DNA of 64,000 nucleotides from contig JAZDKE010000008.1 of the NCBI GenBank assembly GCA_043803245.1, forward strand, positions 7,088 through 71,087. Direction: 5' to 3'. The stretch comes from Chloroflexota bacterium (GTDB lineage Bacteria > Chloroflexota > Dehalococcoidia > Dehalococcoidales > SURF-40). The notes beneath the pieces are model-generated. The model was not told the origin of the DNA. It worked only from the letters and a program-made list of their open reading frames with translations, and searched no databases. This document shows, piece by piece, positions 8,470 through 63,699 of this stretch; position 1 is the stretch's first letter, and every line of letters starts with the position of its first letter. The position numbers were made by a program, and so were the translations under genes.

Positions 8470-8471
8470 TT

Positions 8472-9158: not shown

Positions 9159-9185
9159 ATGGTGATTACCGCCATCCCGCTATTT

Positions 9186-22446: not shown

Positions 22447-22447
22447 A

Positions 22448-22690
22448 TCAACCCTCCACGATGTCACCGATGACCGGGTCAACCCTGACACCTTTCCCCA
22501 TCACCCAGGCGATGCCCCGTTCTATTTCTCCCTCCGCCCCGACCATCTCCAGCACCACCCAGCCGCGGTTTTCGGTAACGTCGGCGCGGCGGATATTGGT
22601 CACGATTTTGAACTGGTGGCTTAAATCATAGATAATCGGTTCCCTGACTAGCTGTTCCGGAAAAGTGAACATAACCTGCTTTTTGGCCAT
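22448..22690 (-). CDS. stand-alone NIL-domain protein
   Basis: 80 aa from ATG 22690 (SD GGAGGG). [36 protein letters not shown] resembles the NIL domain at the MetN C-terminus. Confidence 0.6.
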
Positions 22691-22742
22691 CTTGCCCTCC
22701 GTAGCCACGGTTGCTAGAGCCAACCGCGCCGGCTTTTATTTT

Positions 22743-23966: not shown

Positions 23967-24102
23967 TTTTCCCTGCCTCCGCAACTTAAAGAGATTCGAA
24001 CTTTAAAGTGGCCTGGTTTCTCTAATTAAGGCCGTACTCTTAATCTCTACGGTAGGCCCATTCTACAACTTAATGCGTTTCGGCCTTCCCGGGCTCTGGC
24101 TC

Positions 24103-25281: not shown

Positions 25282-25393
25282 GTCCCCCTCGGCTAAAACA
25301 CCGTACCGCCCACCCTGAAGACTTAAATACTACCCCTCAGTAATCTTTTGCCATCTAAGGAGTTATGAATCGGCAACCGCCCCACCTGGACCC

Positions 25394-26389
25394 TTAGATT
25401 TTGGCGCTGTTACCAGCCTCCTGGAAAAGCCAGGTGGAAAGGTAACGCTCGCCGGTATCCGGCAGGACGACCACAATCAGCTTGCCCTGATTTTCTTTTC
25501 TTTTGGCCACTTCCAGGGCCGCCCAGGCAGCCGCCCCGGAAGAGATGCCGGCCAGGATACCTTCCTCTTTGGCCAGTCGGCGGGCGGTGATGCCAGCGTT
25601 CTCGTTGCTGACCTTGATTATATCATCAATCAGGTCCCGCCTCAAAACATCGGGCACAAAACCAGCCCCGATACCCTGAATCTTGTGCGGCCCGGGCTTG
25701 CCGCCGGAAAGGATCGGCGAAGCCTCTGGCTCAACCGCGATGGCCTTAAACCCCGGTTTTCTCTTTTTAAGGGCTTCGGCAACGCCGGTGATGGTGCCGC
25801 CGGTGCCCACGCCGCTCACCAGAATATCGACTTTGCCCGCCGTGTCCCGCCAGATTTCCTCGGCGGTGGTCAGGCGGTGTATCTCCGGGTTGGCCGGGTT
25901 CTTGAACTGCTGGGGCATAAAATACCCGGGATTTTGCTTGACCAGCTCTTCGGCCCGGCGCACCGCGCCCGGCATGCCCTCGGCCCCGGGCGTCAGTATC
26001 AGCTCAGCGCCGAAAACGGCCAGGAGCTGCCGCCGTTCCATAGACATGGTATCGGGCATGGTCAGGATGAGCCGGTAGCCCCGGGCGGCGCAGACAAAAG
26101 CCAGCGCGATGCCGGTATTGCCGCTGGTCGGCTCCACGATGACGGTGTCTTTCCCGATGAGACCCTTCTCCTCGGCATCGGTAATCATCGCGACGCCGAT
26201 GCGGTCCTTAACGCTGCTTAAGGGATTGAAGGACTCCAGTTTGGCCACCACCTCGGCTTTTAACCCCGCAGTGACGCGGTTCAATCTGACCAGAGGGGTG
26301 TTCCCTATCAGTTCGGTTGAGTCCCGGGCGATGCCCCTTTCCAGTTTGGGGATTTCAACGGTCTTGTAACGCAGCTTTTCAACGGCCAT
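25394..26389 (-). CDS. cysK: cysteine synthase A (O-acetylserine sulfhydrylase)
   Basis: 331 aa. [23 protein letters not shown] and GTGGTITG. Confidence 0.9.
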
Positions 26390-35204: not shown

Positions 35205-36107
35205 TCAAGCGGCGCTTTTTTGCGCGAGGCCGGCGGCGGCCATGATGTCCGGGACGACCTCCTCGCGACCGATGGCCATGATGTGCACGCCGTCGCAAAC
35301 CCGGTCGCGCTTTAGCTCGGCAATCATCCGGCCGGCAATCTCGATGCCCTTTTTCAAGCCTTCACCTTTGGGCGCCTGTGCCATCTCGCTGATTAAGGCC
35401 TGGGGCACGAAGATGCCGGGCACGTTATCGGTCATGTACTGGGCCATCTTGGCCCCGGTGAGCAGCACGATGCCCGCCAGAATCTTCACCGGGAACTGTC
35501 GGGCGTACTCCATGAATTTTCGGAAATTCTCCAGGTCATAGATGGCCTGGGTCTGGATGAACTCGGCGCCCGCCTCGACCTTTTTCTCGAACTTGATGAG
35601 CTGGGGCTCGATAGGCCGGGCCTCGGGAGTGACGATGGCGCCGGCGCAGAACTTGACCGCGCCGTCAAGGTCATTACCGCCCAGGTCCTTGCCGGTCTCC
35701 AGGAGGCGCACCGTCCGCAGCAGCTGGCTCGAATCCATCTCAAAGACGCCGCAGGCGGTCTTGTGGTCGCCCACCGTGGTCGCGTCGCCGGTGAGACAGA
35801 GGACATTACGCACGCCCCGGGTATAAGCGAAGAGCAGGTCAGCCTGGAGGGCCAGCTGGTTACGGTCGCGGCAGGTCATCTGGAGAATCGGTTCGCCGCC
35901 CCGCTCTTTTATATGAAGGCAGCCGCCGAGGGAGGGGAACCGCATCACCGAACTCTGGTGGTCGGTGATATTAAGGCCGTCAACCTTGTCCTTCAGGAGG
36001 TCGATGTGGTGCAGCATTTTCTCGATATTGGTCCCCTTGGGCGGCGCGATTTCGCTGGTGACAACGAATTTGCCGGAGTCTAAAGCCTCTTTGAAGCTCG
36101 GTGCCAT
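35205..36107 (-). CDS. metF: methylenetetrahydrofolate reductase (MetF, anaerobe type)
   Basis: 300 aa. FVVTSEIAPPKG and DGLNITDHQSSVMR, a TIM-barrel MTHFR pattern. It directly follows metV. Confidence 0.85.
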   Translation of the reverse strand: MAPSFKEALDSGKFVVTSEIAPPKGTNIEKMLHHIDLLKDKVDGLNITDHQSSVMRFPSLGGCLHIKERGGEPILQMTCRDRNQLALQADLLFAYTRGVRNVLCLTGDATTVGDHKTACGVFEMDSSQLLRTVRLLETGKDLGGNDLDGAVKFCAGAIVTPEARPIEPQLIKFEKKVEAGAEFIQTQAIYDLENFRKFMEYARQFPVKILAGIVLLTGAKMAQYMTDNVPGIFVPQALISEMAQAPKGEGLKKGIEIAGRMIAELKRDRVCDGVHIMAIGREEVVPDIMAAAGLAQKSAA

Positions 36108-36123
36108 TGGTCTCCTCCTCGCT

Positions 36124-36768
36124 CTAGGTAACTAGCGTGACGCGTGGCCTGGGGGTCACCTGCGCGTTCTGGATGGGCCGGTAGCGGCGCATTAAGTCGA
36201 GCCGGCCTATCTCCTTGAGGCGCTGGTAAATCAGCGTCCAGGCGCAGTCCTTTTCTTTGCTGACTTCGCACTTGCCGTTGTTGGTGCCGCCGCAGGGGCC
36301 GTTCACCATGTGCTTGTGGCAGTAAGTAATGGGACAGATGCCGCCCGTCCAGCCGATGACGCACTGGCCGCACTGGGCGCAGACTTCGTGGAAATCACCC
36401 GGGCGAAACTCCAGGCCGATGAACAGGGTGTCCAGGGCGGGGATGACCGGCTTCATGAGGTATGAGTTTATCTTCTGGACTCCCAGGGCGCAGGGCATGG
36501 CCAGGATGGCGTCCGCCGACTGGATGGCATCCTGGTTTTCGCGGAGGTTCACCTCGGTCATGTCGTCGCAGGCCACCGGGACTACCGAGACGCCGGTGAC
36601 CATTTTGCCCGCCTGCTTGAGGCGCTCCCTCATCTCGATAACTTCGTCAATGCCGCCGGTGCGGGTCATGGTGGTGCAGGTGCCGCAACCGATGATGAAG
36701 ATACTCCCCAGCCCGTTAAGCTGCTCCAGTATCTCCGCGGTCGGCTTCTGCCTGGTGATTGATTTCAT
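36124..36768 (-). CDS. metV: MTHFR C-terminal-domain protein (MetV)
   Basis: 214 aa. It has the Cys-rich motifs CAQCGQC and CPITYCHKHMVNGPCGG. Confidence 0.8.
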   Translation of the reverse strand: MKSITRQKPTAEILEQLNGLGSIFIIGCGTCTTMTRTGGIDEVIEMRERLKQAGKMVTGVSVVPVACDDMTEVNLRENQDAIQSADAILAMPCALGVQKINSYLMKPVIPALDTLFIGLEFRPGDFHEVCAQCGQCVIGWTGGICPITYCHKHMVNGPCGGTNNGKCEVSKEKDCAWTLIYQRLKEIGRLDLMRRYRPIQNAQVTPRPRVTLVT

Positions 36769-36814
36769 CCTCGTCCTCCCGCTGGAAAACCTCTATTTGG
36801 CGCTGGCTTTCCTA

Positions 36815-39800
36815 TCATTTTTCTAGGTCGCAGCGCAGGCAGCGCTTGGCCTCGTACCGGGCCTGCTCCTCGCTGAAACCCATCTCGATTTCGTAAAAGC
36901 TCTTCTTGCGTTCCGGGACCGCCCGGGTGGGCATCTTTGCCCTGGGCTGCTCTCCGGGCGTGGCCGCTTCTTCCTCAGCCGCCTTTTCCGTGACCACCGG
37001 CACCCTTAAATCGTAGAGGTCTACCCGGGAAGTATCACCCCGTAGATATTTGTCAATGGCGGTAGCCCCCCGCCGGCCGGCGGCCACCGCCGCTACCACC
37101 ATACCCGGGCCGCTCACGAAATCTCCCCCGGCGAAGACCCCCGGCACGTTGGTGGCGAGCGAGTTAGTGTCCACCACCAGCGTCTCCCAGCGGGTGCGTT
37201 CCAGGGCGCTATCGCGGGGCAGGAAGGAGAGGTCCGGGGCCTGGCCCACCGCGGCAATCACGGTGTCGGCGGGGACAAAGAACTCGGAGCCCGTGACGGG
37301 GATAGGCCGGCGGCGGCCACTCTCATCACGCTCCCCGAGCTGCATGCGGGTGCACTGGAGTCCGGTGACCCGCCAGTTATCGTTTTCCACCCGGGTGGGG
37401 CTGACCAGGAAATTCATGTTGATGCCCTCGGCGACGGCTTCATCATATTCCACTTCGGTGACCGGCATCTCTTCGAGCGAACGCCGGTAGTAGATATTCA
37501 CTTCCTCTGCACCCAGGCGCAGGGCGGTGCGGGCTGAGTCTAAGGCCACATTGCCGCCGCCGATAACCGCCACGCGCTTACCGACGCTTACCGGACGGCC
37601 CACCTTGACATCTCTCAGGAACCGCAGCCCGTAGTAGAAGCTCTCGATGTCCTCCAGCTCGCCGGGGATACCCACGCGCTGGCTGGTCTGCGCCCCGGCG
37701 GCGATGAAGACCGCCTTAAAGCCTTCTTTTTTCAGGTCGTCAACGGTGTAATTGATGTTAATCGGCGTGTTGTACCTGATTTCCACGCCGCGCTTGATGA
37801 TGTAATCGATGTCCTGCTGGATGGCCTCGCGGGGCAGCCGGAACTCCGGCAGGGCTATTGCCAGCATGCCGCCGGCTACCGGCAGGGCTTCAAAGACGGT
37901 TACGGGATAGCCTATCTGAGCCAGAAAGTAGGCACAGCTTAAGCCGGTGGGCCCGCCGCCCACCACCGCCACTCTATGGGAATGGGTACGTGGGAAAGGC
38001 TCGGGTTCCGGCAGCGGGTGGCCGGCGTACCAGTCGGCGGCAAAGCGTTTCAGCTCCCGGATGGCAATCGGCGCTTCCAGTTCGCCCCGCCGGCAGCGTC
38101 CCTCGCAGGGATGGTGACAGATGCGGCCACAGATGGCGGCGAAGGGGTTGCGCTCTCTTATGGTGTTAATCGAGGCCAGGTAATCGCCCTCGGCGATGGC
38201 CGCCACGTACCTCGGGACATTGATGCCTACCGGGCAGGTGTGCTGGCAGGGTGATATCATCAGGGCGTCGCAGACCGCCGCCGGGCACTTCTTGTCCCGG
38301 ATGTGGGCGTCATATTCGGCGCGGAAATACTTGATGGTGGAGAGCACCGGATTGGGCGCCGTCTGCCCGAGACCGCAGAGGGAAGTCTCCTTCACCCCCC
38401 GGGCGATGATTTCCAGAAGTTCTATGTCGCCGGTTTGCCCCTTCCCCTCGGTGATTCGGGTCAGGATTTCCAGCATCTGCCGGGTGCCCAGACGGCAGGG
38501 GGTGCACTTGCCGCAGGACTCGCTCTGGGTAAAGCTGATAAAGAAGCGGGCTACGTCAACGATGCAGGTGTTTTCGTCCATGACCACCATGCCGCCCGAG
38601 CCCATAATCGAGCCCAGCTTCGCCAGGCTATCGTAATCAACCGGGGTATCGATTAGCTGGGCGGGGATGCAGCCGCCCGAAGGCCCGCCGGTCTGCACCG
38701 CCTTGAGCTGCTTGCCGCGCGGGATGCCGCCCCCGATATCGTAGATGATGTGGGACAGGGGCGTGCCCATGGGCACTTCCACCAGGCCGCTGTTGGCAAT
38801 CTTGCCGGTAAGCGCAAAAACTGCCGTCCCCTTGCTTTTTTCGGTGCCGTAGCCGGCGAACCAGTCGGCGCCGCGCTCGATGATAACCGGGATGGTGGCC
38901 AGTGTCTTGGTGTTGTTGATATTACTCGGTTTACCGTTGATGCCGGACTGGGCCGGGAAAGGCGGGCGGGGGCGCGGCATGCCCCGATGGCTTTCAATCG
39001 AAGCCATTAAAGCCGTCTCCTCGCCGCAGACGAAAGCCCCGGCCCCCTCCTTGAGGTGTATCTCAAAGCCGAAGCCGCTACCCAGGATATTCCGCCCGGA
39101 AAAACCGCGCGAGCGGGCCTGCTCCAGGGCCGTAATAAGCCGCTTAACCGCCAGGGGGTACTCGGCGCGCACGTAGATAAAGCCTTCGCTGGCGCCGATG
39201 GCGTAGGCGGCGATGGTCAGCCCTTCGATGACGGCGTGGGGGTCGGCTTCCAGAATGGAGCGGTCCATAAAAGCGCCCGGGTCGCCTTCGTCGGCGTTGC
39301 AGATGACGTACTTGGGCTCACCCGGCGCTTTACGGCAGAAGTCCCACTTTGTGCCGGTGGGAAAACCGGCGCCGCCGCGCCCGCGCAGCCCCGACCTCTT
39401 CACTTCCTCGATAACCGCTTCCGGCTTCATCCCAAAAGCCTTGCGTAGCGCCCGATAGCCGCCCCGCGCCAGGTAATCATCAATCTTCTCCGGGTCGATG
39501 TAGCCGCAGTTACGCAGGACGATGCGTTCCTGTCGCTGGTAGAACTTGATGTCCGGGTAGTGGGGCACCACCTGGCCGGTCATGGGGTCGGTGTAAAGCA
39601 GGCGCTCCACCAGCTCGTGGCCTTTTAAGTGCCGCTCGGCGATTTCGTCGGCGTCGTCGGCCGAAACCTGGCAGTAGAAGACCCCTTCCGGCTCTACAAT
39701 GACGGTGGGGCCCTGCTGGCAGAAGCCGTGACAGCCGGTCGATTTAACTTTCACCCTGAGCCCCAGCCGGCTAATCGCCTCTTCCAGGCGCTGGCGGACC

Positions 39801-39919
39801 TGCTCGGAACCGGGGCAGCCCGAACCGCAGCAGATACGCAGCTCCCGCGCTTCCCCTTTGGTCCCGGGGGCTTTTTTGCGTTCCAGGGTTAGAAGGGCAG
39901 CCGCTTCCCTGCGTGCCAT
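36815..39919 (-). CDS. fusion protein: Trx-like [2Fe-2S] domain + NuoF/HydB-like NADH:FMN module + GltD/NfnB-like NAD(P)H:FAD module
   Basis: 1034 aa. CCGSGC...CHGFCQQGP; GLRGRGGAGFPTGTKW; NADEGDPGAFMDR; ESCGKCTPCRLGT; GRICHHPCEGRC; VAVVGGGPTGLS and VAVIGGGNVALD. Confidence 0.85.
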   Translation of the reverse strand: MARREAAALLTLERKKAPGTKGEARELRICCGSGCPGSEQVRQRLEEAISRLGLRVKVKSTGCHGFCQQGPTVIVEPEGVFYCQVSADDADEIAERHLKGHELVERLLYTDPMTGQVVPHYPDIKFYQRQERIVLRNCGYIDPEKIDDYLARGGYRALRKAFGMKPEAVIEEVKRSGLRGRGGAGFPTGTKWDFCRKAPGEPKYVICNADEGDPGAFMDRSILEADPHAVIEGLTIAAYAIGASEGFIYVRAEYPLAVKRLITALEQARSRGFSGRNILGSGFGFEIHLKEGAGAFVCGEETALMASIESHRGMPRPRPPFPAQSGINGKPSNINNTKTLATIPVIIERGADWFAGYGTEKSKGTAVFALTGKIANSGLVEVPMGTPLSHIIYDIGGGIPRGKQLKAVQTGGPSGGCIPAQLIDTPVDYDSLAKLGSIMGSGGMVVMDENTCIVDVARFFISFTQSESCGKCTPCRLGTRQMLEILTRITEGKGQTGDIELLEIIARGVKETSLCGLGQTAPNPVLSTIKYFRAEYDAHIRDKKCPAAVCDALMISPCQHTCPVGINVPRYVAAIAEGDYLASINTIRERNPFAAICGRICHHPCEGRCRRGELEAPIAIRELKRFAADWYAGHPLPEPEPFPRTHSHRVAVVGGGPTGLSCAYFLAQIGYPVTVFEALPVAGGMLAIALPEFRLPREAIQQDIDYIIKRGVEIRYNTPININYTVDDLKKEGFKAVFIAAGAQTSQRVGIPGELEDIESFYYGLRFLRDVKVGRPVSVGKRVAVIGGGNVALDSARTALRLGAEEVNIYYRRSLEEMPVTEVEYDEAVAEGINMNFLVSPTRVENDNWRVTGLQCTRMQLGERDESGRRRPIPVTGSEFFVPADTVIAAVGQAPDLSFLPRDSALERTRWETLVVDTNSLATNVPGVFAGGDFVSGPGMVVAAVAAGRRGATAIDKYLRGDTSRVDLYDLRVPVVTEKAAEEEAATPGEQPRAKMPTRAVPERKKSFYEIEMGFSEEQARYEAKRCLRCDLEK

Positions 39920-39920
39920 C

Positions 39921-40406
39921 TCATCGCTCCTCGTACTGGTCGAATATCGCGGTAAGTTTTTTGGGGTTCAGCTTGCCGTAGATGGTATTGCCGACGACCA
40001 TGTTGGGCGCCAGGGCGCAACAGCCGATGCAGGCCACCGTTTCCAGGCTGTACTTATAGTCCGGCGTGGTCTCGTTTTCCTTAATACCCAGACGTTGCCT
40101 GGCCAGTTTCAGTATCGTTTTACTGCCTCTCACGTGGCAGGCGGTACCCCGGCAGACCCTCACGATATGCTGGCCGCGCGGCGTGGTGTAAAACTGCGAA
40201 TAGAAGGTAATCACGCCCTGCACCTGGGAAGGGAAAAGCCCCAGGCTCGCGGCGATGGGACGGACGGCACCGGCAGGAATGTAGCCGAATGCCTCCTGGA
40301 TTTTTTGCAGCAGCGGTATCAGGGCCCACTTCTGGCCCCGGTGCCGGTCGATAATTTCCTGGACCTGCCCGGGTCCAGGCTCGGCGATGGTCTTCGTCTC
40401 AATCAT
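39921..40406 (-). CDS. NuoE/HydC-like [2Fe-2S] thioredoxin-fold subunit
   Basis: 161 aa. RVCRGTACHVRGS and CIGCCALAPNMVV. The gap to the next gene is 1 nt. Confidence 0.85.
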   Translation of the reverse strand: MIETKTIAEPGPGQVQEIIDRHRGQKWALIPLLQKIQEAFGYIPAGAVRPIAASLGLFPSQVQGVITFYSQFYTTPRGQHIVRVCRGTACHVRGSKTILKLARQRLGIKENETTPDYKYSLETVACIGCCALAPNMVVGNTIYGKLNPKKLTAIFDQYEER

Positions 40407-40474
40407 CAGTTTTCATCTTACTCGACTATTGTCAGAGACTTGGACGATAGCATCGCTCAGCCAAGTCTTTAACT

Positions 40475-43075
40475 TCACACATCGGCTTTTAGCTTTTCAA
40501 TCTTCACCCTGACGTTCCCAAGCGCCGGACTCCGGGAAACCGGGTCAAGAACCGTGTCAAAAAGCCCGGCGACCGGCGTACCGGGGAAGGAATCAGCGAT
40601 AAAGAGGACCCCCGGCTCAAGCTCGTGGCTAAAGCGGACCGAGGTATTGAGTTCCCCCGAGAGGGAGATGAGGCGCACCCGGTCGCCGGAACTCAGTCCC
40701 GCGGCCCGGCCGTCAGACTCGGTCATCTCCAGAAAAGCCTCAGGGCACCATTTACCCAGGCGCGCCGAGCGGGAGCTCCGGGTGCCGGAACTCTGGTGGA
40801 ACTGGCTTGCGCCGGTGAGCAGGGTAAAGGGATATTCACCGCTACTCGGAGTTGGCGCTCGCGGCGCCACCGGCTGAAAGCTTGCTTTACCCGGGGCCGG
40901 TCGGGCGACTGCCCCAGACCGGACGCGGTAGGCGGGCACCATCTCCTTAATTTCAGCCATAACTTCAGCCGGGGAGGCATAAGGCATCGGCCTGCCCATC
41001 TTCTCTGCCAGCTTGAGTATTATCTCCCAGTCGGGCAGGGCTTGGCCCGGGCTTTCAAACGCCCGGTTTAAGGGCTGCACCCGGCCTTCGAAATTGGTGA
41101 AGGTGCCCTCCTTTTCGGCAAAACTGGCCGCGGGCAAAACCACGCTGGCAAGCTTGGCCGTCTCGTTCAAGAACAGGTCCTGGACGACCAGGAACTCCAG
41201 CGACTCAAGTGCCTTTCGGGTGCGGGTCGGCGCCGGGAAGCTCAAAACCGGGTTCTCCCCGACGATGTACATTGCCTTGAGTTTTCCCCCGGCCGCAGCC
41301 GCAATCATCTCCAGAGCGGTGAGACCGGGCTTTGCCGGTAACTTAGCGCCCCAGCGCTCCTCGAATATTTTCCGGGGACGTGCCGCAAGTTCCTGGTAGC
41401 CGGGTAGATAGTCGGGCAGAACGCCCATGTCGGCGGCGCCCCGGCCGTTACAGTCCGTCTGGGGGGCATAGACCGCCTCACGGTTACCGGTAAGCAGCGC
41501 CAGGTTGGCCAGCGCCATTACGGCATCGGTGGCGTTCGCCTCGCGGCTAAGACTGTTGCCAGCGATGAAGGCCACCCGCCCGGCGCTGCCGATAAGCTCC
41601 GCCGCGGTCGCAAGCTCTTCCTCGGGGACGCCGGTGAAAGCGGCCACGTAGTCCGCCGGGTACTCTTCCAGTCCCTTAAGGAACTCTTCATAGCCACTGA
41701 TGGCGCTAACTTTCTCCCGGTCATACCAGCTCCCGTTAACGATTGCCCGGGCCAGGCCGCTGAGCAAGGCGGCGTCAGTGCCGGGGCGGGGCCGAAGGTG
41801 GAGCTGGGCAAAGGGGCCAAGCCGGGTCTCACGCGGGTCAATGATAATCAAGCGGCGCCCCTGGAATTTGGCGGCGCGTTTTACCGTGTAGCTCAGGATG
41901 GGCGCGCTGGCCTCAAGGTCAGCACCGCAGGCCAGTATCACCGGCGAACTTTCCAGCTCCGTCATGAGGCCGGTGGCCACCGGTGAGCCGAGGACTCTCT
42001 CGAACGCCGCGCGGCTGGCCTCGTTTTGGAGACGTCCGCCATTATCGAGGTTGTTGGTGCCCAGCAGGCCGCGCCCCAGCCTCTGGAGCAGGTAGTTTTC
42101 CTCGTTGGTCAGGCGGCTACCGCCCAGGATGGCCAGGCTGTCCGGTCCAGCGGTATCGCGGATGCGGCCAAACTCCCCGGCCACGAGCTTCAGGGCTTCA
42201 TCCCAGGAAATTTCTTCGAATCCGGTCGCCGTTTTCTTGAGGGGGTGTTTCAGCCGCTCCGGGCTGTTAACGAAATCGCAGCCGTAGCTTCCCCGGACAC
42301 AGAGGGCACCCCGGTTGGCGCCGTGGGCGGTGGGCAGAACGCGCACCAGTCGGTTAGCTTTATAGCCCAGGGAAAGGGTGCAACCGCAGCCGCAGTAGGG
42401 GCACACCGAGCCCACCGAGGTTACCGTGGTCCCCCGGGCGATTTTATCTTTCTCCATGATGGCGCCGGTGGGACAGGCGGCCAGGCAGGTGCCGCAGAAA
42501 GTACATTCCGACTTTTCCAGGGGCAGGTCGCCCAGCGTGGCGGGCCTGGCGCTGAAGCCCCGGTGGAGATAGTCGATGGCCCCGACCACTACCAGTTCCT
42601 GGTCGGCGCGAATACACCGGGCGCACAGGATACACTTGCTCAAATCCCTTTCCAGGAAGGGGTTCAACTCCTGGATTACCGCCGGCTGCGGGATTCTCTC
42701 CAGGTCGATGAAACCGACGCCCAGGTCGGCGGCAATCTGCCGCAGCGAGCAGCGGTTGCCCTTGTCGCAGACCATGCAGCTGTCGGGGTGGCTGGCCAGC
42801 AGGAGCTTGAGCAATAGCCGCCGACGCTCCAGCACCCGGGGCGACACCGTATTGATGACCATGCCCGGCGCGATGGGTGTGACGCAGCTGGCCAGCAGCG
42901 TCCCATTAGCCTCGTTCTCCACGATGCAGACGCGGCAGGCGCCATAGGGTTTCAGATTGGGGTCGTCGCACAGGGTGGGTATGTCCACGCCGGCTTCCCG
43001 CGCCAGCTCCAGCACGGTCATGGCGGGGCGGCCGCTCACTTCCCGACCATTAAGCGTGATGGTAATCGTTTCCAA
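40475..43075 (-). CDS. NuoG/FdhA-like molybdopterin-fold protein with N-terminal [2Fe-2S] and [4Fe-4S] domains. The catalytic Cys/Sec-His pair is replaced.
   Basis: 866 aa. CDDPNLKPYGACRVC, CILCARC, CTFCGTCLAACP and CPYCGCGC. Where formate dehydrogenases have ...DHCARL(C/U)HS..., this protein has TNNLDNGGRLQNEAS. TTG start. Confidence 0.8.
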   Translation of the reverse strand: METITITLNGREVSGRPAMTVLELAREAGVDIPTLCDDPNLKPYGACRVCIVENEANGTLLASCVTPIAPGMVINTVSPRVLERRRLLLKLLLASHPDSCMVCDKGNRCSLRQIAADLGVGFIDLERIPQPAVIQELNPFLERDLSKCILCARCIRADQELVVVGAIDYLHRGFSARPATLGDLPLEKSECTFCGTCLAACPTGAIMEKDKIARGTTVTSVGSVCPYCGCGCTLSLGYKANRLVRVLPTAHGANRGALCVRGSYGCDFVNSPERLKHPLKKTATGFEEISWDEALKLVAGEFGRIRDTAGPDSLAILGGSRLTNEENYLLQRLGRGLLGTNNLDNGGRLQNEASRAAFERVLGSPVATGLMTELESSPVILACGADLEASAPILSYTVKRAAKFQGRRLIIIDPRETRLGPFAQLHLRPRPGTDAALLSGLARAIVNGSWYDREKVSAISGYEEFLKGLEEYPADYVAAFTGVPEEELATAAELIGSAGRVAFIAGNSLSREANATDAVMALANLALLTGNREAVYAPQTDCNGRGAADMGVLPDYLPGYQELAARPRKIFEERWGAKLPAKPGLTALEMIAAAAGGKLKAMYIVGENPVLSFPAPTRTRKALESLEFLVVQDLFLNETAKLASVVLPAASFAEKEGTFTNFEGRVQPLNRAFESPGQALPDWEIILKLAEKMGRPMPYASPAEVMAEIKEMVPAYRVRSGAVARPAPGKASFQPVAPRAPTPSSGEYPFTLLTGASQFHQSSGTRSSRSARLGKWCPEAFLEMTESDGRAAGLSSGDRVRLISLSGELNTSVRFSHELEPGVLFIADSFPGTPVAGLFDTVLDPVSRSPALGNVRVKIEKLKADV

Positions 43076-43242: not shown

Positions 43243-43626
43243 CTAGACGTACCTTCCAACTGCCTTGAGCAGTTCCGCCGGGCTTACCGGCTTGTCGAGA
43301 TAGTCCTCGGTATCCAGGTCGAAACCCCGGCTCCTCGGTATCGCCGTCCCCTGCCCTTTCTGGGCAAAGCTGGTGAGCATGATGACCGGGATTTTGGCCA
43401 GTGCCGGGTCTTTCTTGAGCTGTTCCGCCGCGGTAAAGCCGTCCTTTACCGGCATAATCACGTCCAGTATTATGAGGTCAGGTTTTTCCTTCCTGGCCAT
43501 TATCAGTCCTGCTTCACCATCATCGGCGGTAATAATCTCGTAGTGCCGGCTTTCCAGGATAGTCCTGGTGGCGCTAACGAAGTCCGGGTCGTCATCGACC
43601 AGCAGAATCTTGGCTTTTTTGTCCAT
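43243..43626 (-). CDS. response regulator (receiver domain only)
   Basis: 127 aa. KILLVDDDPD, PDLIILDVIMP and a conserved K (YLDKP). Confidence 0.85.
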   Translation of the reverse strand: MDKKAKILLVDDDPDFVSATRTILESRHYEIITADDGEAGLIMARKEKPDLIILDVIMPVKDGFTAAEQLKKDPALAKIPVIMLTSFAQKGQGTAIPRSRGFDLDTEDYLDKPVSPAELLKAVGRYV

Positions 43627-43658
43627 TCTCTAAACTCCTCTCTAAAACTAAAGCCCGG

Positions 43659-44129
43659 TCACTTCTTGGACGGCTGGTTCTTTTCGAGAAGCTTTGTCAC
43701 CTTCCGCAGGATGATATCGGGGGAAAAGGGTTTTTCCACCAGGTCGTCGACCAGGACATCGGGAGAAGTCTTTTTCTCCACGTAGCCGGCCACGTCCAGA
43801 CTGACACCGGTCTCCAGCTCGTAGCGGCGGCGGCTGGCTTCTTCCCTGATTGAGCTTAAAATCATGATGGGCGTGTTACGGAATTCCGACCATTTCGAAT
43901 CCCGGAGTTCCCGCAACACCGCAAAACCGTCCATTTTCGGCATCATCAGGTCCATAATCATCAGGTCGGGCTTCTGGGCCTTGAGACAGGCCAGTCCCTC
44001 GATGCCGTCCCAGGCTGAAATCACCTGGTAGCCATTCGATTCTAAAATCATGCTGAGGGCTTCGTGAATATCCGGGTCATCATCGACCACCAGGATTTTC
44101 TTCGGCGCCTTTTCTCCCCTGGACTTCAT
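43659..44129 (-). CDS. response regulator (receiver domain only, with a C-terminal tail)
   Basis: 156 aa. KILVVDDDPDI, PDLMIMDLMMP and YVEKKTSP. Confidence 0.85.
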   Translation of the reverse strand: MKSRGEKAPKKILVVDDDPDIHEALSMILESNGYQVISAWDGIEGLACLKAQKPDLMIMDLMMPKMDGFAVLRELRDSKWSEFRNTPIMILSSIREEASRRRYELETGVSLDVAGYVEKKTSPDVLVDDLVEKPFSPDIILRKVTKLLEKNQPSKK

Positions 44130-44203
44130 ACCGCTTACCGCCGGCTCCTTTCTATCCGTCCCGAACGATACCGGCCCCGTTAATCCGGCAACATCGCCCG
44201 GGA

Positions 44204-45433
44204 TTAATTTTTGGGCAGGGTAAAAACAAACTTGCTCCCCTGGCCGCTTTCCGGGCAGGGACTCTCAACCCAGATGCGCCCACCGTGAGCTTCGATGACC
44301 CTCTTGGCGATGGCCAGTCCCAGGCCGGTACCTTTGGTATGACGGGCGTTGCTTGCCCGGAAAAACTCATGGAAAATATTGGGCAGTTCCTCCGGGGGAA
44401 TGCCAATCCCGGTGTCGAGACATTCGAACTGGAAGCACTCTGACCCATTGACCACCCTGAGCTTCACCGAACCACCCGGCTCGGTATAGGTTATGGCGTT
44501 GGAGAGCAGATGGGTGATGACGTGCTGCAGGCGGCTGCCGCAGGCGTTCAAAGGAGGCAGCTCGTCCGGTATCTCGCTGCTCAAGACGATGCTTCTCTTC
44601 TCCGCAAGGTTGCCCGCGGTTTCCAGGCAGGTGTCGAGCAGCCCCCGCAGGTTAATCAGCTCCATCTCGGTAACGACGTTGCCCACCGTGATTTTGGACA
44701 TGTCCAGCAGGTCGCTGATTAACTCCAGCAGCTCCCTGACCCTGGTAGAGCACCTTCCCAGGATGTTCTGCTGCTTTTCGTTAAGCCCTCCGGCATAACC
44801 ATCGAGCAACACGCTAAAATAGGTCTGGACGGCGCTGAGCGGCGCTTTGAGGTCGTGGGCTGCCATGGAGAGGAATCGAAAGAGATTCTGGCGTTCATCC
44901 CCCAGATGGGCGAGGTCAATATTACACTGCTGTAGATTCTGGCTTACCTGCTCGTGTAGTCGAGCTTTCTCCAAAGCCAGAGCACCCAGGCTGGCGACAC
45001 CATCGACAAAATTGATTTCCTCGGCTGTGAAAACGCGGGGCTTGGCGGTGTAGACTCTGATTACGCCCAGCAATTTATCGTCAATCTTGACTGGCACCGA
45101 GAGTATCGAGGCGATGCCCTCCTCAACTCTTAGTTGGCGGTACTTGACGGTTTCGTCTTTTGTGGCGTTCAGGATTTGGGCCGGTTTGCCGGCCATCGCC
45201 TGGGCGATGCTTTTATCGGACAGCAGCGGTCCCTCTTTCATGTAGCGGTCACTGAGACCGTAGGTGGCACTGGGTACCAATCTTTTTTTGTCTTCGCTAA
45301 TGAGTAGCAGGCAGCAACCCTTGGCATCTACGATGCGGGCGGTGCTTTCCACAACCGCCCGCAGGACTTCATCGGCCGAAAGCGAGGAGCTTATCCGCTT
45401 GGTAACTTCAAACAGAATCTGCGGGTACTGCAT
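44204..45433 (-). CDS. GAF-domain sensor histidine kinase
   Basis: H-box MAAHDLKAPLSAV and ATPase motifs GTGLGLAIAKRVIEAHGG. I prefer ATG 45433 (SD GGGGGAG); the track ORF extends to 45511. Confidence 0.85.
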   Translation of the reverse strand: MQYPQILFEVTKRISSSLSADEVLRAVVESTARIVDAKGCCLLLISEDKKRLVPSATYGLSDRYMKEGPLLSDKSIAQAMAGKPAQILNATKDETVKYRQLRVEEGIASILSVPVKIDDKLLGVIRVYTAKPRVFTAEEINFVDGVASLGALALEKARLHEQVSQNLQQCNIDLAHLGDERQNLFRFLSMAAHDLKAPLSAVQTYFSVLLDGYAGGLNEKQQNILGRCSTRVRELLELISDLLDMSKITVGNVVTEMELINLRGLLDTCLETAGNLAEKRSIVLSSEIPDELPPLNACGSRLQHVITHLLSNAITYTEPGGSVKLRVVNGSECFQFECLDTGIGIPPEELPNIFHEFFRASNARHTKGTGLGLAIAKRVIEAHGGRIWVESPCPESGQGSKFVFTLPKN

Positions 45434-45743
45434 GCCGCTCCCCCGGTTTGCGGGATACCGGCTTAATCTAGCGCCGCTAAACCACCAATTCCCCGGATGC
45501 CAAAATACCAAAATCGCTGGCGTTTAAAGGTGCGGTAATTTTACGGTGTCTTCCGGCTTAAGAGTTGGAACAAATACCCCCGGGCTGATAAAAGCTGGGG
45601 CATAACGGATTTTGCTCCTTTCTCGCCGAAATGAGGCCAGCCGAGATAGCAGGACTCGGTGAACAGGCTAAATTGTAGTATCTGTTACCGGCTTTGTCAA
45701 GCGGGGTTTGCACTTGGGATTTAGAACTGGAATAATGGCCGTG

Positions 45744-62508: not shown

Positions 62509-62550
62509 TAAGCACACTGACAAATCCCTTTTTATAGTTAGGAGGGTATT

Positions 62551-63634: not shown

Positions 63635-63699
63635 CTAATTAATCACCGTAGCAGGAGGCAAACAGGTGGCCAAAACTCCAGGCGAAGTATTTAAAAACC

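What the first reader, a model, noticed from the sequence alone, without database searches (positions are those of the whole stretch)
35205..43075. MetV-MetF sits in one co-directional cluster with a NuoE / NuoF::GltD / NuoG(FdhA)-like module, a candidate undescribed NAD(P)H/ferredoxin-coupled MTHFR complex
Five minus-strand genes are separated by only 68, 1, 46 and 16 nt.
- An 866-aa FdhA/NuoG-like protein with N-terminal 2Fe-2S and 4Fe-4S domains.
- A NuoE-like 2Fe-2S protein.
- A 1034-aa fusion of a Trx-like 2Fe-2S domain, a NuoF module (GRGGAGFPTG, ESCGKCTPCR) and a GltD/NfnB-like module with two GxGxxG sites.
- MetV, then MetF.

The MTHFR architectures I know are MetF alone, MetFV, MetFV+HdrABC+MvhD, and MetFV+RnfC2. 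I do not know of a described MetFV paired with a NuoEF-GltD/NuoG-like module. The module content (an NADH-FMN site, an NAD(P)H-FAD site and many Fe-S clusters) resembles the Sporomusa-type Nfn (Stn) transhydrogenase and Geobacter SfrAB. This cluster could therefore couple methylene-THF reduction to NADH/NADPH/ferredoxin, possibly by electron bifurcation. Alternatively, it is a transhydrogenase that merely neighbours metVF.
Basis: partly seen in the sequence, partly recalled or inferred. Interest (0 to 1): 0.6.

Follow-up and report, generated by a model that had tools for sequence, protein, structure and literature searches.

The report
Uncharacterised five-subunit methylene-tetrahydrofolate reductase operon

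Summary
Five minus-strand genes (35205-43075), separated by 68, 1, 46 and 16 nt, encode an FdhA/NuoG-like protein, a NuoE-like protein, a 1034-aa NuoF::GltD fusion, MetV and MetF.

The linkage is not a chance neighbourhood:
- Among 80 species-representative genomes from several phyla that carry the fusion, NuoE lies upstream in 78/78, the FdhA-like gene in 63/64, MetV downstream in 73/74 and MetF in 58/60.
- In a reverse search seeded with MetF, the fusion was found in 33/33 loci.

The trio belongs to the bifurcating Bfu/HydABC/Stn clade, with two differences:
- The formate-dehydrogenase catalytic residues (Sec/Cys, His, Arg) are lost across the family.
- The ferredoxin-reducing C-terminal domain of BfuB is replaced by the GltD/NfnB FAD-NAD(P)H module.

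One Dehalococcoidia genome couples the same fused module to a NiFe hydrogenase instead, so the module is interchangeable.

"Undescribed" is only partly right. Yi et al. 2021 (PMC8515935) noted metFV with upstream NuoEFG homologues in Desulfobacterales and Chloroflexi as an unstudied "X-type" MTHFR.

My best reading is a single MTHFR complex (about 0.75). It possibly couples NADH, NADP(H) and methylene-THF without ferredoxin (about 0.35).

The parts
40475..43075 (-). BfuA/FdhA/NuoG-like subunit (866 aa). It has an N-terminal Fe-S wire and a catalytically degenerate molybdopterin-oxidoreductase-like domain.
   Evidence: Pfam. The Fe-S ligands C36/47/50/64, H96/C100/103/109, C148/151/154, C191/194/197/201 and C225/228/232/259 are conserved in 65-67 of 67 homologues. 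The best solved matches are formate dehydrogenases, but the catalytic residues are absent.
42266..43075 (-). Fe-S domain of the FdhA-like subunit (residues 1-270). It carries one [2Fe-2S], a His-ligated [4Fe-4S], a two-cluster ferredoxin-like domain (Asp158 replaces the fourth Cys of the first motif) and the Molybdop_Fe4S4 cluster.
   Evidence: Mean identity to homologues is 55%, against 40% and 27% for the two later regions.
42023..42028 (-). Codons for Gln350-Asn351, at the position of the Mo/W-ligand Sec/Cys and the catalytic His of formate dehydrogenases.
   Evidence: Alignments to YjgC, HDCR FdhF, F420-FDH and W-FDH. The column is S/Y/R/L/H/Q and never consistently Cys in 67 homologues. 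The catalytic Arg is also replaced (Q539).
39921..40406 (-). BfuC/NuoE-like [2Fe-2S] subunit (161 aa).
   Evidence: PF01257. C85, C90, C126 and C130 are invariant in 81 homologues. The best solved matches are the C subunits of bifurcating enzymes (A. mobile HydC 162 bits, T. kivui HydC, NfnC, StnA), ahead of FdsG and NuoE.
39560..39919 (-). Fusion protein residues 1-120: N-terminal thioredoxin-like [2Fe-2S] domain (the 'B5' site of BfuB).
   Evidence: NCBIfam 2Fe-2S ferredoxin hit at residues 45-108. C30, C35, C63 and C67 are conserved in 82-84 of 84 homologues.
38255..39559 (-). Fusion protein residues 121-555: the NuoF/BfuB core. It holds the FMN/NADH site, the B1 [4Fe-4S] cluster and the Bfu-specific 3Cys-1His 'B2' metal site.
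   Evidence: Complex1_51K, SLBB and NADH_4Fe-4S. GRGGAGF, NADEGDPGA and ESCGKC.PCR are invariant in 84/84. The motif 'EYxAHIRDKKCPAxxC' is shared with HydB/StnB/NfnB, and C452, H539, C545 and C550 are invariant. Best solved match is 7t2r_B at 786 bits.
36818..38254 (-). Fusion protein residues 556-1034: GltD/NfnB-like module with two [4Fe-4S] clusters, FAD and an NAD(P)H site. It occupies the place of the BfuB ferredoxin-reducing C-terminal domain.
   Evidence: Fer4_20 and Pyr_redox_2. It aligns to NfnA 104-594 and StnC 102-566. C558/562/597/601/605/609 and the C-terminal RCLRCD are invariant. The nucleotide-discriminating loop reads YRRS, the NADPH type, in the window.
36124..36768 (-). MetV (214 aa), the Fe-S/zinc subunit of MetFV-type MTHFR.
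   Evidence: PF12225. NGPCGG is invariant in 75/75, and 12-13 Cys are invariant. It lies directly downstream of the fusion in 73/74 genomes, with a median gap of 19 nt. No homologue has a solved structure.
35205..36107 (-). MetF (300 aa), the flavin-containing methylene-THF reductase catalytic subunit.
   Evidence: PF02219 at 138 bits. It is 70-84% identical across phyla and is the slowest-evolving of the five proteins.
43243..45511 (-). Upstream two-component genes on the same strand: two receiver-only response regulators and a GAF histidine kinase. They are candidate regulators of the operon (tentative).
   Evidence: Pfam. Kinase and regulator genes flank the cluster in most related loci, although they are of varying types. 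An 11/12 sigma-70-like match lies at 45700-45672.

Best explanation
The five genes form one operon that encodes one soluble enzyme: a MetFV-type methylene-tetrahydrofolate reductase. Its redox partner is a modified Bfu-type module consisting of BfuA-like, BfuC-like and BfuB::GltD subunits.

Shown by computation:
- the operon-like packing;
- the cofactor-binding motifs: FMN/NADH site, FAD/NAD(P)H site, about 11 Fe-S sites in the trio, and the MetV clusters;
- membership of the B and C subunits in the bifurcating Bfu clade;
- loss of the formate-dehydrogenase active site;
- replacement of the ferredoxin-reducing BfuB C-terminal domain by the GltD module;
- near-obligate synteny with metVF.

Inferred:
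- MetV docks on the BfuA-like subunit. Electrons then pass between the MetF flavin (CH2-THF/CH3-THF, E0' about -200 mV) and the [B1-FMN-C1] centre of BfuBC along the Fe-S wire.
- The second exit of that centre is the swinging BfuC [2Fe-2S] cluster. In Stn, NfnABC and HydABC it feeds B3/B4 and then ferredoxin. Here it would feed the two GltD clusters, then FAD, then NADP(H).

Most likely reaction for this YRR-type enzyme: a ferredoxin-independent flavin-based bifurcation/confurcation, 2 NADH + NADP+ + CH2-THF <-> 2 NAD+ + NADPH + CH3-THF. This is close to equilibrium at physiological NAD(P)H ratios, so it could run in either direction of the Wood-Ljungdahl pathway.

Probabilities: one MTHFR complex about 0.75; this particular three-substrate coupling about 0.35 (the confidence given).
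For: Anatomy.

Synteny across 80 GTDB species representatives (Dehalococcoidia, Syntrophomonadaceae, many Thermodesulfobacteriota, and MAGs labelled Spirochaetota, Acidobacteriota, Latescibacterota and Anaerolineales):
- NuoE 78/78, FdhA-like 63/64, MetV 73/74, MetF 58/60.
- Reverse search from MetF in metagenomes: MetV 52/52, full fusion 33/33, NuoE 32/32, FdhA-like 23/23.

The distance matrices of all five proteins correlate at r = 0.78-0.92 over 55 loci, as strongly as MetV correlates with MetF.

Bfu-clade membership: the B and C subunits score far higher against bifurcating HydB/C, NfnB/C and StnB/A than against NuoF/E or FdsB/G. The Bfu-specific B2 motif is retained.

The BfuB alignments stop at ~528-544 of 584-630 residues, just before the C-terminal domain. 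The NfnA/StnC GltD alignments start there. That C-terminal domain is the ferredoxin-reducing site (PMC11829005; PMC10482914).

Modularity: in L072 the same fused module is followed by a BfuA-like gene and NiFe-hydrogenase small and large subunits in place of MetVF.

Independent note of the arrangement, with the MetFV phylogeny forming a separate group III for it: PMC8515935.

The YRRS loop after the second Rossmann motif is the pattern of NADPH-using GltD/NfnB relatives. This specificity rule comes from my own knowledge; the motif itself is seen.
Against: - There is no direct evidence of a physical complex, of transcripts or of activity.
- Synteny could partly reflect horizontal transfer of the operon as a unit. 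MetF is 70-84% identical across phyla, and MAG taxonomic labels may be wrong.
- In 33 of 84 homologues the nucleotide loop reads C-L-E, with an acidic residue that suggests NADH or no 2'-phosphate binding. NADP(H) therefore cannot be the universal third partner.
- In Stn the inactive FdhF-like domain and its clusters are dispensable for electron transfer and mediate tetramerisation (PMC10482914). A 'wire to nowhere' therefore does not prove that a partner docks.
- In published Bfu mechanisms electrons enter through BfuA from a mid-potential donor. Methyl-THF is higher in potential than both nicotinamides, so my scheme needs NADH at FMN to be the bifurcated donor. That has not been shown for any Bfu enzyme.
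- With standard potentials the coupling gains little compared with ferredoxin.
- Ferredoxin could still bind elsewhere, for example on MetV, since two-subunit MetFV enzymes use reduced ferredoxin in vitro (PMC8515935, PMC8760232).
Confidence: 0.35

Rival explanations
1. The five-subunit complex is the same, but ferredoxin (or flavodoxin) is still a substrate and binds somewhere other than the lost BfuB C-terminal domain, for example on MetV or the BfuA-like subunit. The reaction would then be the long-postulated 2 NAD(P)H + Fd_ox + CH2-THF <-> 2 NAD(P)+ + Fd_red + CH3-THF, with two nicotinamide sites.
For: - This is thermodynamically the most rewarding coupling. It is the one postulated for MetFV-HdrABC-MvhD (PMC5861303).
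- Two-subunit MetFV enzymes accept reduced ferredoxin (PMC8515935; PMC8760232).
- It would accommodate both the YRR and the C-L-E nucleotide-loop variants.
- The Bfu-specific gating elements (BfuC cluster, B2 site, Trx-like domain) are retained.
Against: - The only domain shown structurally to reduce ferredoxin in this enzyme family is missing.
- No ferredoxin gene is conserved in the cluster.
- No ferredoxin-binding site can be identified from sequence.
Confidence: 0.2
2. The five-subunit complex is the same, but it is not energy-coupled. It would be a simple NAD(P)H:methylene-THF oxidoreductase in which either NADH (FMN site) or NAD(P)H (FAD site) feeds the Fe-S wire to MetVF, analogous to the non-bifurcating NADH-dependent MetFV-RnfC2 enzyme of Acetobacterium woodii.
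For: - The A. woodii type III enzyme shows that MetFV with an added NADH-binding Fe-S flavoprotein need not bifurcate (PMC8760232).
- The acceptor (-200 mV) lies above both donors, so no coupling is required in the reductive direction.
- The same fused module also serves a NiFe hydrogenase, which suggests a general dual-nucleotide diaphorase.
Against: - Non-bifurcating NuoF homologues lack the extra Bfu sites (PMC9304861), whereas this protein keeps the B2 and Trx-like sites and a Bfu-type C subunit.
- Many hosts are complete-oxidising sulfate reducers and syntrophs that must run the step in the endergonic oxidative direction (titles). An uncoupled enzyme could not do that.
- Two separate nicotinamide sites are hard to rationalise without coupling.
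Confidence: 0.2
3. The trio is an independent enzyme that is merely co-located or co-regulated with metVF. It could be a ferredoxin-independent NADH:NADP+ transhydrogenase, or an Stn/Sfr-like NAD(P)H oxidoreductase with another partner.
For: - The trio contains both an NADH-FMN site and an NAD(P)H-FAD site joined by Fe-S clusters.
- Stn has an equally inactive FdhF-like domain that serves only in oligomerisation.
- Related fused modules occur in other contexts: a hydrogenase in L072, and ~650-aa proteins with the SfrB-like architecture.
Against: - Within this clade the trio is virtually never found without metVF, nor group-III MetF without the trio, in either search direction and in several phyla.
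- Gaps are 1-68 nt with translational-coupling geometry.
- The MetFV sequences linked to this arrangement form their own phylogenetic group (PMC8515935).
Confidence: 0.1
4. The trio is an NAD(P)+-dependent formate dehydrogenase (FdsABG-like or Fdh-Bfu-like), the first enzyme of the methyl branch, clustered with the last enzyme, MetVF.
For: - The best solved matches of the 866-aa protein are true formate dehydrogenases (E 1e-149 to 1e-91).
- TIGR01591 Fdh-alpha scores 515 bits.
- The organism has a tRNA-Sec.
Against: - The TIGR01591 score is below its cut-off of 666.
- Sec/Cys is replaced by Gln350, His by Asn351, and the catalytic Arg by Gln539.
- These columns are variable and never Cys in 67 homologues.
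- The pterin domains are the fastest-evolving part (40% and 27% identity, against 55% for the Fe-S domain).
- There is no in-frame TGA.
Confidence: 0.02

Closest known systems
'X-type' MTHFR noted by Yi et al. 2021 (Microbiol Spectr 9:e00958-21, PMC8515935), exemplified by Dethiosulfatarculus sandiegensis
   Same: It has metFV with NuoEFG-homologue genes directly upstream and is stated to be widespread in Desulfobacterales and Chloroflexi. That is the distribution found here. The MetFV sequences form a separate phylogenetic group.
   Different: It was only a one-paragraph genomic remark with no biochemistry. It does not mention that 'NuoF' is fused to a GltD/NfnB module, that this module replaces the ferredoxin-reducing domain, or that the 'NuoG' is a dead formate-dehydrogenase homologue. 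I could not check the D. sandiegensis sequence itself.
Stn / NfnABC (Nfn-Bfu) electron-bifurcating transhydrogenase (Sporomusa ovata, Caldicellulosiruptor, Thermococcus; PDB 8oh5, 9bov, 9n5u)
   Same: It uses the same building blocks: NuoE-like C subunit, BfuB with FMN/B1/B2/Trx-like sites, a GltD/NfnB-like FAD-NADPH module with two [4Fe-4S] clusters, and a NuoG-like subunit with an inactive FdhF-like domain.
   Different: In Stn the GltD module is inserted in the NuoG-like subunit (residues 102-565), and BfuB keeps its C-terminal B3/B4 ferredoxin site. Here GltD is fused to BfuB in place of that domain, the FdhA-like subunit has no GltD insert, and the operon always continues into metVF.
Acetomicrobium mobile NiFe-HydABCSL (PDB 7t2r) and other Type 2/3 Bfu enzymes with extra catalytic subunits (Schut et al. 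2022, PMC9304861)
   Same: It is the best solved match for the B (786 bits) and C (162 bits) subunits. The logic is the same: a separate catalytic module (SL there, MetVF here) feeds a BfuA wire. A hydrogenase version of the fused module exists in L072.
   Different: The third substrate would be methylene/methyl-THF, which is not among the Bfu functionalities listed. The ferredoxin domain is absent.
MetFV-HdrABC-MvhD (Moorella thermoacetica type IV / '6S') and MetFV-RnfC2 (Acetobacterium woodii type III / '3S') MTHFRs
   Same: All have a MetF+MetV core extended by an NADH-binding Fe-S flavoprotein module. The type IV enzyme is also suspected, but not proven, to bifurcate.
   Different: The accessory module is unrelated (Hdr/Mvh or RnfC rather than Bfu/GltD). 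Window MetF is only ~35-44% identical to the second, non-linked metVF copies seen in some loci.
Geobacter SfrAB (NADPH-dependent soluble oxidoreductase)
   Same: SfrB is GltD-like and SfrA is NuoG/FdhA-like (PMC7483475). About 650-aa proteins with the same PF10589::Fer4_20::Pyr_redox_2 junction are common.
   Different: SfrAB lacks the NuoE subunit and the FMN/NADH domain, and it is not linked to metVF. I did not have SfrAB sequences, so the link rests on domain architecture and on the literature.

Membership tests
MetFV-type methylenetetrahydrofolate reductase | MetF subunit with the MTHFR TIM-barrel domain (PF02219). | tested here: met
   PF02219 at 138.5 bits, covering residues 5-292. It matches solved MTHFRs distantly, at E about 1e-11.
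MetFV-type methylenetetrahydrofolate reductase | MetV subunit (PF12225) with the NGPCGG motif and Cys clusters, encoded directly upstream of metF. | tested here: met
   PF12225 at 119 bits. NGPCGG is invariant in 75/75, and 12-13 Cys are invariant. The gap to metF is 16 nt.
MetFV-type methylenetetrahydrofolate reductase | Methylene-THF reduction or methyl-THF oxidation activity. | not testable with these tools
   Needs an enzyme assay.
'X-type' MTHFR (Yi et al. 2021) | NuoE, NuoF and NuoG homologue genes directly upstream of metFV, in Desulfobacterales or Chloroflexi. | tested here: met
   Gene order in the window and in 160 related loci. Definition from PMC8515935.
Bfu (BfuABC) electron-bifurcating family | BfuB with an FMN/NADH site and the adjacent B1 [4Fe-4S] cluster, and BfuC with the C1 [2Fe-2S] cluster (the minimal 'flavobicluster'). 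| tested here: met
   The motifs are invariant in 84/84 and 81/81 homologues. The best solved matches are bifurcating B and C subunits. Definition from PMC11829005.
Bfu (BfuABC) electron-bifurcating family | Extra BfuB sites absent from non-bifurcating NuoF homologues: the B2 (3Cys-1His) site and the N-terminal thioredoxin-like site. | tested here: met
   'AHIRDKKCPAAVC' aligns identically to HydB/StnB/NfnB. C452, H539, C545 and C550 are invariant, and C30/35/63/67 are conserved.
Bfu (BfuABC) electron-bifurcating family | BfuB C-terminal domain with the B3 and B4 [4Fe-4S] clusters that reduce ferredoxin. | tested here: not met
   Alignments to seven solved BfuB chains end ~56-64 residues before their C-termini. 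From residue ~556 the sequence is GltD/NfnA-like.
Bfu (BfuABC) electron-bifurcating family | Tightly coupled three-substrate (NAD, ferredoxin, third substrate) bifurcating activity. | not testable with these tools
   Needs biochemistry.
Stn / NfnABC transhydrogenase | GltD/NfnB-like NADPH-FAD module inserted into the NuoG-like subunit (StnC/NfnA residues ~102-565). | tested here: not met
   The 866-aa protein has no Pyr_redox or Fer4_20 domain. The module is C-terminal on the NuoF-like protein.
Stn / NfnABC transhydrogenase | Stand-alone three-gene operon. | tested here: not met
   metV follows the fusion in 73/74 genomes.
NAD(P)+-dependent formate dehydrogenase (FdsABG / Fdh-Bfu) | Sec/Cys Mo/W ligand with the adjacent His, and the catalytic Arg, in the alpha subunit. 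| tested here: not met
   Q350, N351 and Q539 occupy these positions. The columns are variable in 67 homologues. The TIGR01591 score is below its cut-off.
SfrAB-like oxidoreductase | Two subunits: a GltD-like subunit carrying only the NuoF C-terminal Fe-S domain, and an FdhA-like subunit. No NuoE and no FMN domain. | tested here: inconclusive
   The junction architecture is shared with ~650-aa proteins. The window has the additional FMN domain and NuoE. No authentic SfrAB sequence was available for comparison.

The most novel reading that the evidence does not exclude
This would be the first ferredoxin-independent member of the Bfu family. NADP(H), bound to a GltD module that took over the position of the ferredoxin-reducing domain, would serve as the low-potential partner, and methylene-THF as the high-potential partner, of NADH-based electron bifurcation. 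The enzyme would be a reversible 'methylene-THF-driven transhydrogenase'. That would explain how complete-oxidising sulfate reducers, syntrophs and non-dehalogenating Dehalococcoidia drive methyl-THF oxidation, and how they conserve the energy of methylene-THF reduction without ferredoxin.
Probability: 0.3. Interest if true: 0.8.

Novelty: new variant of a known kind. Interest (0 to 1): 0.6.

Why it matters
The methylene-THF/methyl-THF couple (about -200 mV) is the most exergonic step of the reductive Wood-Ljungdahl pathway and the thermodynamic bottleneck of the oxidative one. Whether its energy is conserved, and how, has been debated for decades. Even the Moorella MetFV-HdrABC-MvhD enzyme still lacks an identified second acceptor.

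This operon is a fifth architecture:
- It is abundant. There were more than 120 clusters at 90% identity among close relatives alone, 539 genome hits and more than 574 metagenome hits.
- It is strictly conserved.
- It occurs in ecologically dominant subsurface and sediment lineages (Dehalococcoidia, Desulfobacterales and others).
- Some hits are assigned to cultured species (a MAG of Desulfosudis oleivorans here; Dethiosulfatarculus sandiegensis in Yi et al.), so strains may be available for biochemistry.

Replacement of the ferredoxin domain by an NAD(P)H module gives a concrete, falsifiable prediction about the partners of the reaction. If correct, it would add a new substrate class and a new wiring to the Bfu family of bifurcating enzymes. 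It would also change redox and ATP balances in metabolic models of these organisms.

Tried and rejected
1. Formate dehydrogenase reading: rejected, because the catalytic Sec/Cys, His and Arg are absent across the family.
2. Plain Stn/NfnABC membership: rejected, because the GltD module sits on the other subunit and the ferredoxin domain is missing.
3. Chance neighbourhood: rejected by two independent synteny surveys.
4. Other Wood-Ljungdahl genes in the window: none found. The flanks hold housekeeping genes (transketolase, rpe, rpiB, M50 protease, ubiE, hrcA-grpE-dnaK-dnaJ, Cys/Met biosynthesis), so the pathway context of this MAG could not be established.
5. Literature: ten full-text searches were run.
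   - Only Yi et al. 2021 mentions the arrangement.
   - The Bfu family survey (PMC9304861), the Müller-lab MTHFR typology (PMC8760232), the Chloroflexi/Actinobacteria Wood-Ljungdahl papers (PMC5736913, PMC7325909), the syntrophic-acetate-oxidiser papers (PMC6295475, PMC10608574, PMC10689502) and the ANME comparative paper (PMC9012536) do not.
   - The Desulfobacterium autotrophicum genome paper lists 'MetF-ABC' in a figure legend without explanation. This is an unverified lead.
   - Subscription-only papers were not searchable.
6. Promoter/terminator scan: uninformative apart from showing no terminator-like sites in the gaps.
7. Solved structures: none for MetV.
8. Structure prediction: not run. 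Only monomers can be predicted and no coordinates are returned, so the decisive inter-subunit geometry could not be addressed.
9. The argument that the BfuA-like wire must lead to a partner: weakened after reading that the equivalent Stn domain is purely structural.
10. A universal NADPH assignment for the FAD site: abandoned after finding the YRR versus C-L-E dimorphism.

Full report
**Observation**

- 40475-43075 (866 aa; TTG start with a GAGAGG Shine-Dalgarno sequence)
- 39921-40406 (161 aa)
- 36815-39919 (1034 aa)
- 36124-36768 (214 aa)
- 35205-36107 (300 aa)

The gaps are 68, 1, 46 and 16 nt. Pfam and NCBIfam confirm every domain call:
- an FdhA/NuoG-like protein with an N-terminal [2Fe-2S] domain, several [4Fe-4S] motifs and a molybdopterin-oxidoreductase-like body;
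- a NuoE-type thioredoxin-like [2Fe-2S] protein;
- a fusion of a Trx-like [2Fe-2S] domain, the NuoF FMN/SLBB/[4Fe-4S] module and a Fer4_20 + Pyr_redox_2 (GltD/NfnB/DPD-type) module;
- MetV (PF12225);
- MetF (PF02219).

MetV, MetF and the fusion each have a strong ribosome-binding site. The NuoE stop and the fusion start are 1 nt apart. No terminator-like hairpin lies in any gap. Downstream, a convergent M50 protease gene ends the unit. Upstream on the same strand lie two receiver-only response regulators and a GAF histidine kinase. The contig is a Chloroflexota MAG: an identical protein is named 'MAG... [Chloroflexota bacterium]', and its closest relatives are Dehalococcoidia.

**Is the neighbourhood meaningful?**

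Close relatives of the fusion (72-84% identity, more than 120 clusters at 90% identity) are abundant. Three look-ups in Dehalococcoidia contigs showed the same five genes in the same order, with unrelated downstream genes.

A scan of one genome per GTDB species returned 539 confirmed relatives. The best 80 are all full-length fusions at 55-73% identity. They come from Dehalococcoidales, Syntrophomonadaceae and many Thermodesulfobacteriota (Desulfobacterales, Desulfarculaceae, Desulfatiglandaceae, Desulfosudis oleivorans, the benzene degrader ORM2a, an Olavius symbiont), and from MAGs labelled Spirochaetota, Acidobacteriota, Latescibacterota and Anaerolineales.

Searching these loci with tblastn, using the window's proteins as queries, gave the following, counting only loci with enough flanking sequence:

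| Gene | Position relative to the fusion | Loci |
|---|---|---|
| NuoE-like | immediately upstream | 78/78 |
| FdhA-like | upstream of NuoE | 63/64 |
| MetV | immediately downstream (median gap 19 nt) | 73/74 |
| MetF | downstream of MetV | 58/60 |

The reverse experiment seeded a metagenome scan with MetF and returned 80 loci at 78-84% identity. MetV was found in 52/52, the full fusion in 33/33, NuoE in 32/32 and the FdhA-like gene in 23/23.

Pairwise distance matrices of the five proteins over 55 loci correlate at r = 0.78-0.92, as well as MetV correlates with MetF. The five genes therefore share one history. I had no unlinked marker as a control, so this result is consistent with the linkage rather than decisive.

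The result is clearly the opposite.

**What the trio is**

All three proteins group with the electron-bifurcating Bfu/HydABC/Stn enzymes rather than with complex I or NAD-dependent formate dehydrogenases.
- The N-half of the fusion scores 683-786 bits against HydB, NfnB and StnB, and about 400 bits against NuoF/FdsB.
- The NuoE-like protein scores 120-162 bits against HydC, NfnC and StnA, and about 96-105 bits against NuoE/FdsG.
- The fusion keeps the FMN/NADH motifs and the B1 cluster (invariant in 84 homologues) and the N-terminal Trx-like four-Cys site. It also keeps the motif 'EYxAHIRDKKCPAxxC', which is shared essentially unchanged with HydB/StnB/NfnB. I take this motif, together with the invariant C452, to be the Bfu-specific 3Cys-1His 'B2' site. 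That assignment is an inference from the description in PMC11829005.

Immediately after that motif the similarity to BfuB stops, 56-64 residues before the C-termini of all solved BfuB chains. Similarity to residues ~102-567 of StnC/NfnA then begins; this is the GltD/NfnB-like NADPH-FAD module with its two [4Fe-4S] clusters. The missing piece is the BfuB C-terminal domain that carries clusters B3 and B4. Structural and mutational work identifies this domain as the route of low-potential electrons to ferredoxin (PMC11829005; PMC10482914).

The protein is therefore BfuB(ΔCTD)::GltD. The GltD module appears complete:
- six invariant Cys;
- an invariant C-terminal RCLRCD that aligns to the end of the NfnA module;
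- both dinucleotide-binding glycine motifs.

The loop after the second Rossmann strand reads YRRS in the window. From my own knowledge of GltD/NfnB/DPD relatives, this is the NADPH-type pattern. However, 33 of 84 homologues have C-L-E there, so nucleotide preference probably differs between lineages.

**The FdhA-like protein is not a formate dehydrogenase**

Its best solved matches are genuine formate dehydrogenases, but residue-level alignments show that the catalytic residues are replaced:
- Gln350 sits at the Sec/Cys Mo-ligand position.
- Asn351 sits at the catalytic His position.
- 'APQTDCNGRG' stands where FDHs have 'PLRGQNNVQG', so the catalytic Arg is replaced.

Across 67 homologues these columns are variable and never consistently Cys, while all Fe-S ligands are conserved. 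Identity falls from 55% in the Fe-S domain to 40% and 27% in the pterin domains. The organism has a tRNA-Sec, but the ORF has no in-frame TGA. The domain is a scaffold, like the inactive FdhF-like domain of StnC.

**Modularity**

The single clear exception to the synteny is instructive. In Dehalococcoidia UBA5629 (L072), a NuoE gene and a 57%-identical BfuB::GltD fusion are followed by a 640-aa BfuA-like gene and NiFe-hydrogenase small and large subunits. This is the architecture of the A. mobile HydABCSL enzyme, but with the fused B subunit. The fused module is thus a cassette that serves different catalytic partners, and in the window's clade that partner is MetVF.

The junction PF10589::Fer4_20::Pyr_redox_2 is also found in several divergent ~1000-1130-aa fusions. 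It also occurs in ~650-aa proteins that lack the FMN domain, which is an SfrB-like architecture. SfrB is described as GltD-like in PMC7483475.

**Mechanism**

I consider it likely (about 0.75) that the five proteins form one methylene-THF reductase. What is shown is anatomy and linkage. The complex itself and its wiring are inferred.

By homology with Bfu enzymes, the [B1-FMN-C1] centre has two electron paths. One runs through B1 into the BfuA Fe-S wire. The other runs through the mobile BfuC cluster into whatever occupies the place of the BfuB C-terminal domain. Here the first path would end at MetV/MetF (CH2-THF/CH3-THF, about -200 mV) and the second at FAD/NADP(H).

The only assignment that makes thermodynamic use of three such sites is:
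- NADH as the bifurcated donor;
- CH2-THF as the high-potential acceptor;
- NADP+ as the low-potential acceptor.

The reaction would be 2 NADH + NADP+ + CH2-THF <-> 2 NAD+ + NADPH + CH3-THF. This has ΔE0' of about +60 mV. It would be close to equilibrium at the usual cellular ratios (NADH about -280 mV, NADPH about -370 mV; textbook values, my knowledge). It could therefore also run backwards in complete oxidisers. I commit to this as the single most likely scheme (about 0.35), but the objections are real:
- the C-L-E variants;
- no precedent for NADH as the bifurcated donor in a Bfu enzyme;
- the possibility that ferredoxin binds elsewhere, since two-subunit MetFV enzymes use it in vitro;
- the possibility that the enzyme is simply uncoupled, like A. 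woodii MetFV-RnfC2.

**Comparison with what is known, and novelty**

The Müller-lab typology has types I-IV, and the Bfu family survey lists no folate-linked member. Yi et al. [quoted passage not shown] (X type)'. They found that its MetFV sequences form a separate phylogenetic group.

The window is therefore a member of an arrangement already recorded in the literature but not characterised. What this analysis adds:
- quantitative synteny in both directions;
- placement of the trio in the bifurcating Bfu clade;
- the replacement of the ferredoxin domain by the GltD module;
- the family-wide loss of the FDH site;
- the hydrogenase-coupled sister system;
- the YRR versus C-L-E dimorphism.

I rate it a new variant of known kinds (MetFV MTHFRs and Bfu enzymes). 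Interest is 0.6. It is relevant to a long-standing bioenergetic question and may be testable in cultured strains of the species named above, but part of the idea has been published and the mechanism is unproven.

**Limits**
- The library of searchable papers excludes most subscription journals.
- MAG taxonomy may be unreliable.
- Only the best 80 of 539 genome hits, and the best 80 of more than 574 metagenome hits, were inspected.
- No transcript, protein or structural data for the complex exist here.

Noticed in passing
window 43243-45511 (-); promoter-like site 45700-45672 (-): Two receiver-only response regulators and a GAF histidine kinase lie directly upstream of the cluster on the same strand. 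Kinase and regulator genes of varying types (HisKA_3/LuxR in other Dehalococcoidia, HTH_17-REC in Desulfobacterota) flank the cluster in most phyla, which suggests a dedicated redox or C1 signal. The best sigma-70-like match (11/12) lies upstream of the kinase gene.
   Followed up: partly
L029:5922-6797 and 36 other loci (e.g. L014-L017, L026-L028, L056): A divergent MTHFR-family paralogue (PF02219 at 57 bits, ~30% identical to MetF) lies directly upstream of the FdhA-like gene in 37 of 51 loci with enough flank. These are mostly Thermodesulfobacteriota. It is absent from the window and from other Dehalococcoidia. It may be a sixth subunit or a second folate site.
   Followed up: partly
L072:9299-16924: In Dehalococcoidia UBA5629 a NuoE gene and a BfuB::GltD fusion are followed by a 640-aa BfuA-like gene and NiFe-hydrogenase small and large subunits. 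This looks like an undescribed hydrogenase variant in which the ferredoxin domain of the B subunit is replaced by an NAD(P)H-FAD module.
   Followed up: partly
fusion residues 810-814 (window ~37478-37492) and the homologous column in 84 sequences: The nucleotide-discriminating loop after the second Rossmann motif is dimorphic. It reads Y-R-R-(S/T) in 51 sequences, including the window, all Dehalococcoidia, Syntrophomonadaceae, Desulfarculaceae, ORM2a and D. oleivorans. It reads C-L-E in 33 sequences, including many Desulfobacterales and the Spirochaetota, Acidobacteriota and Latescibacterota MAGs. This hints at NADPH- and NADH-type versions of the same complex.
   Followed up: partly
window 4551-4647 (-) and 20042-21097 (-): A tRNA-Sec gene and an AIRS/AIRS_C (selenophosphate-synthetase-like) ORF are present. 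The organism appears able to use selenocysteine, although the FdhA-like protein of the cluster has Gln, not Sec, at the ligand position.
   Followed up: no
FdhA-like residue 158 (window ~42602-42604): Asp replaces the fourth Cys of the first ferredoxin-type CxxCxxCxxxC motif in 62 of 67 homologues (Cys in 5). This predicts an Asp-ligated or [3Fe-4S] cluster in the wire.
   Followed up: no
fusion residues 1026-1031 (window 36827-36844): The extreme C-terminus, R-C-L-R-C-D, is invariant in 84/84 homologues. It aligns to the end of the GltD-like module of NfnA/StnC and probably supplies two ligands to one of the two GltD-module [4Fe-4S] clusters.
   Followed up: partly
L019:2909-4470; also L031, L037, L047, L080, L083: A second metV-metF pair (35-44% identical to the window's pair), next to a response regulator, lies within 10 kb of the five-gene cluster in several Thermodesulfobacteriota. 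These organisms therefore carry two MTHFR types side by side.
   Followed up: no
window 62001-64000: GC content drops from ~0.60 to 0.46. An ORF with a partial N6/N4 DNA-methylase domain (61678-62508) and an unassigned ORF (62551-63282) lie here. This may be the edge of a restriction-modification or mobile island.
   Followed up: no
window 21688-26389 (-) and 7384-10064 (-): A run of Cys/Met-biosynthesis-type PLP enzymes (Aminotran_5, two PALP, Cys_Met_Meta_PP) lies ~9-13 kb from metF. An ABC transporter with a TOBE domain (molybdate/tungstate/sulfate type) lies further away. No Wood-Ljungdahl genes (acs, cooS, fhs, folD) occur anywhere in the 64 kb.
   Followed up: no
PMC2702500, figure legend: The 2009 Desulfobacterium autotrophicum HRM2 genome paper lists 'MetF-ABC, methylenetetrahydrofolate reductase' among its abbreviations, without explanation. 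It may be an early, unremarked drawing of MetF with three extra subunits.
   Followed up: partly
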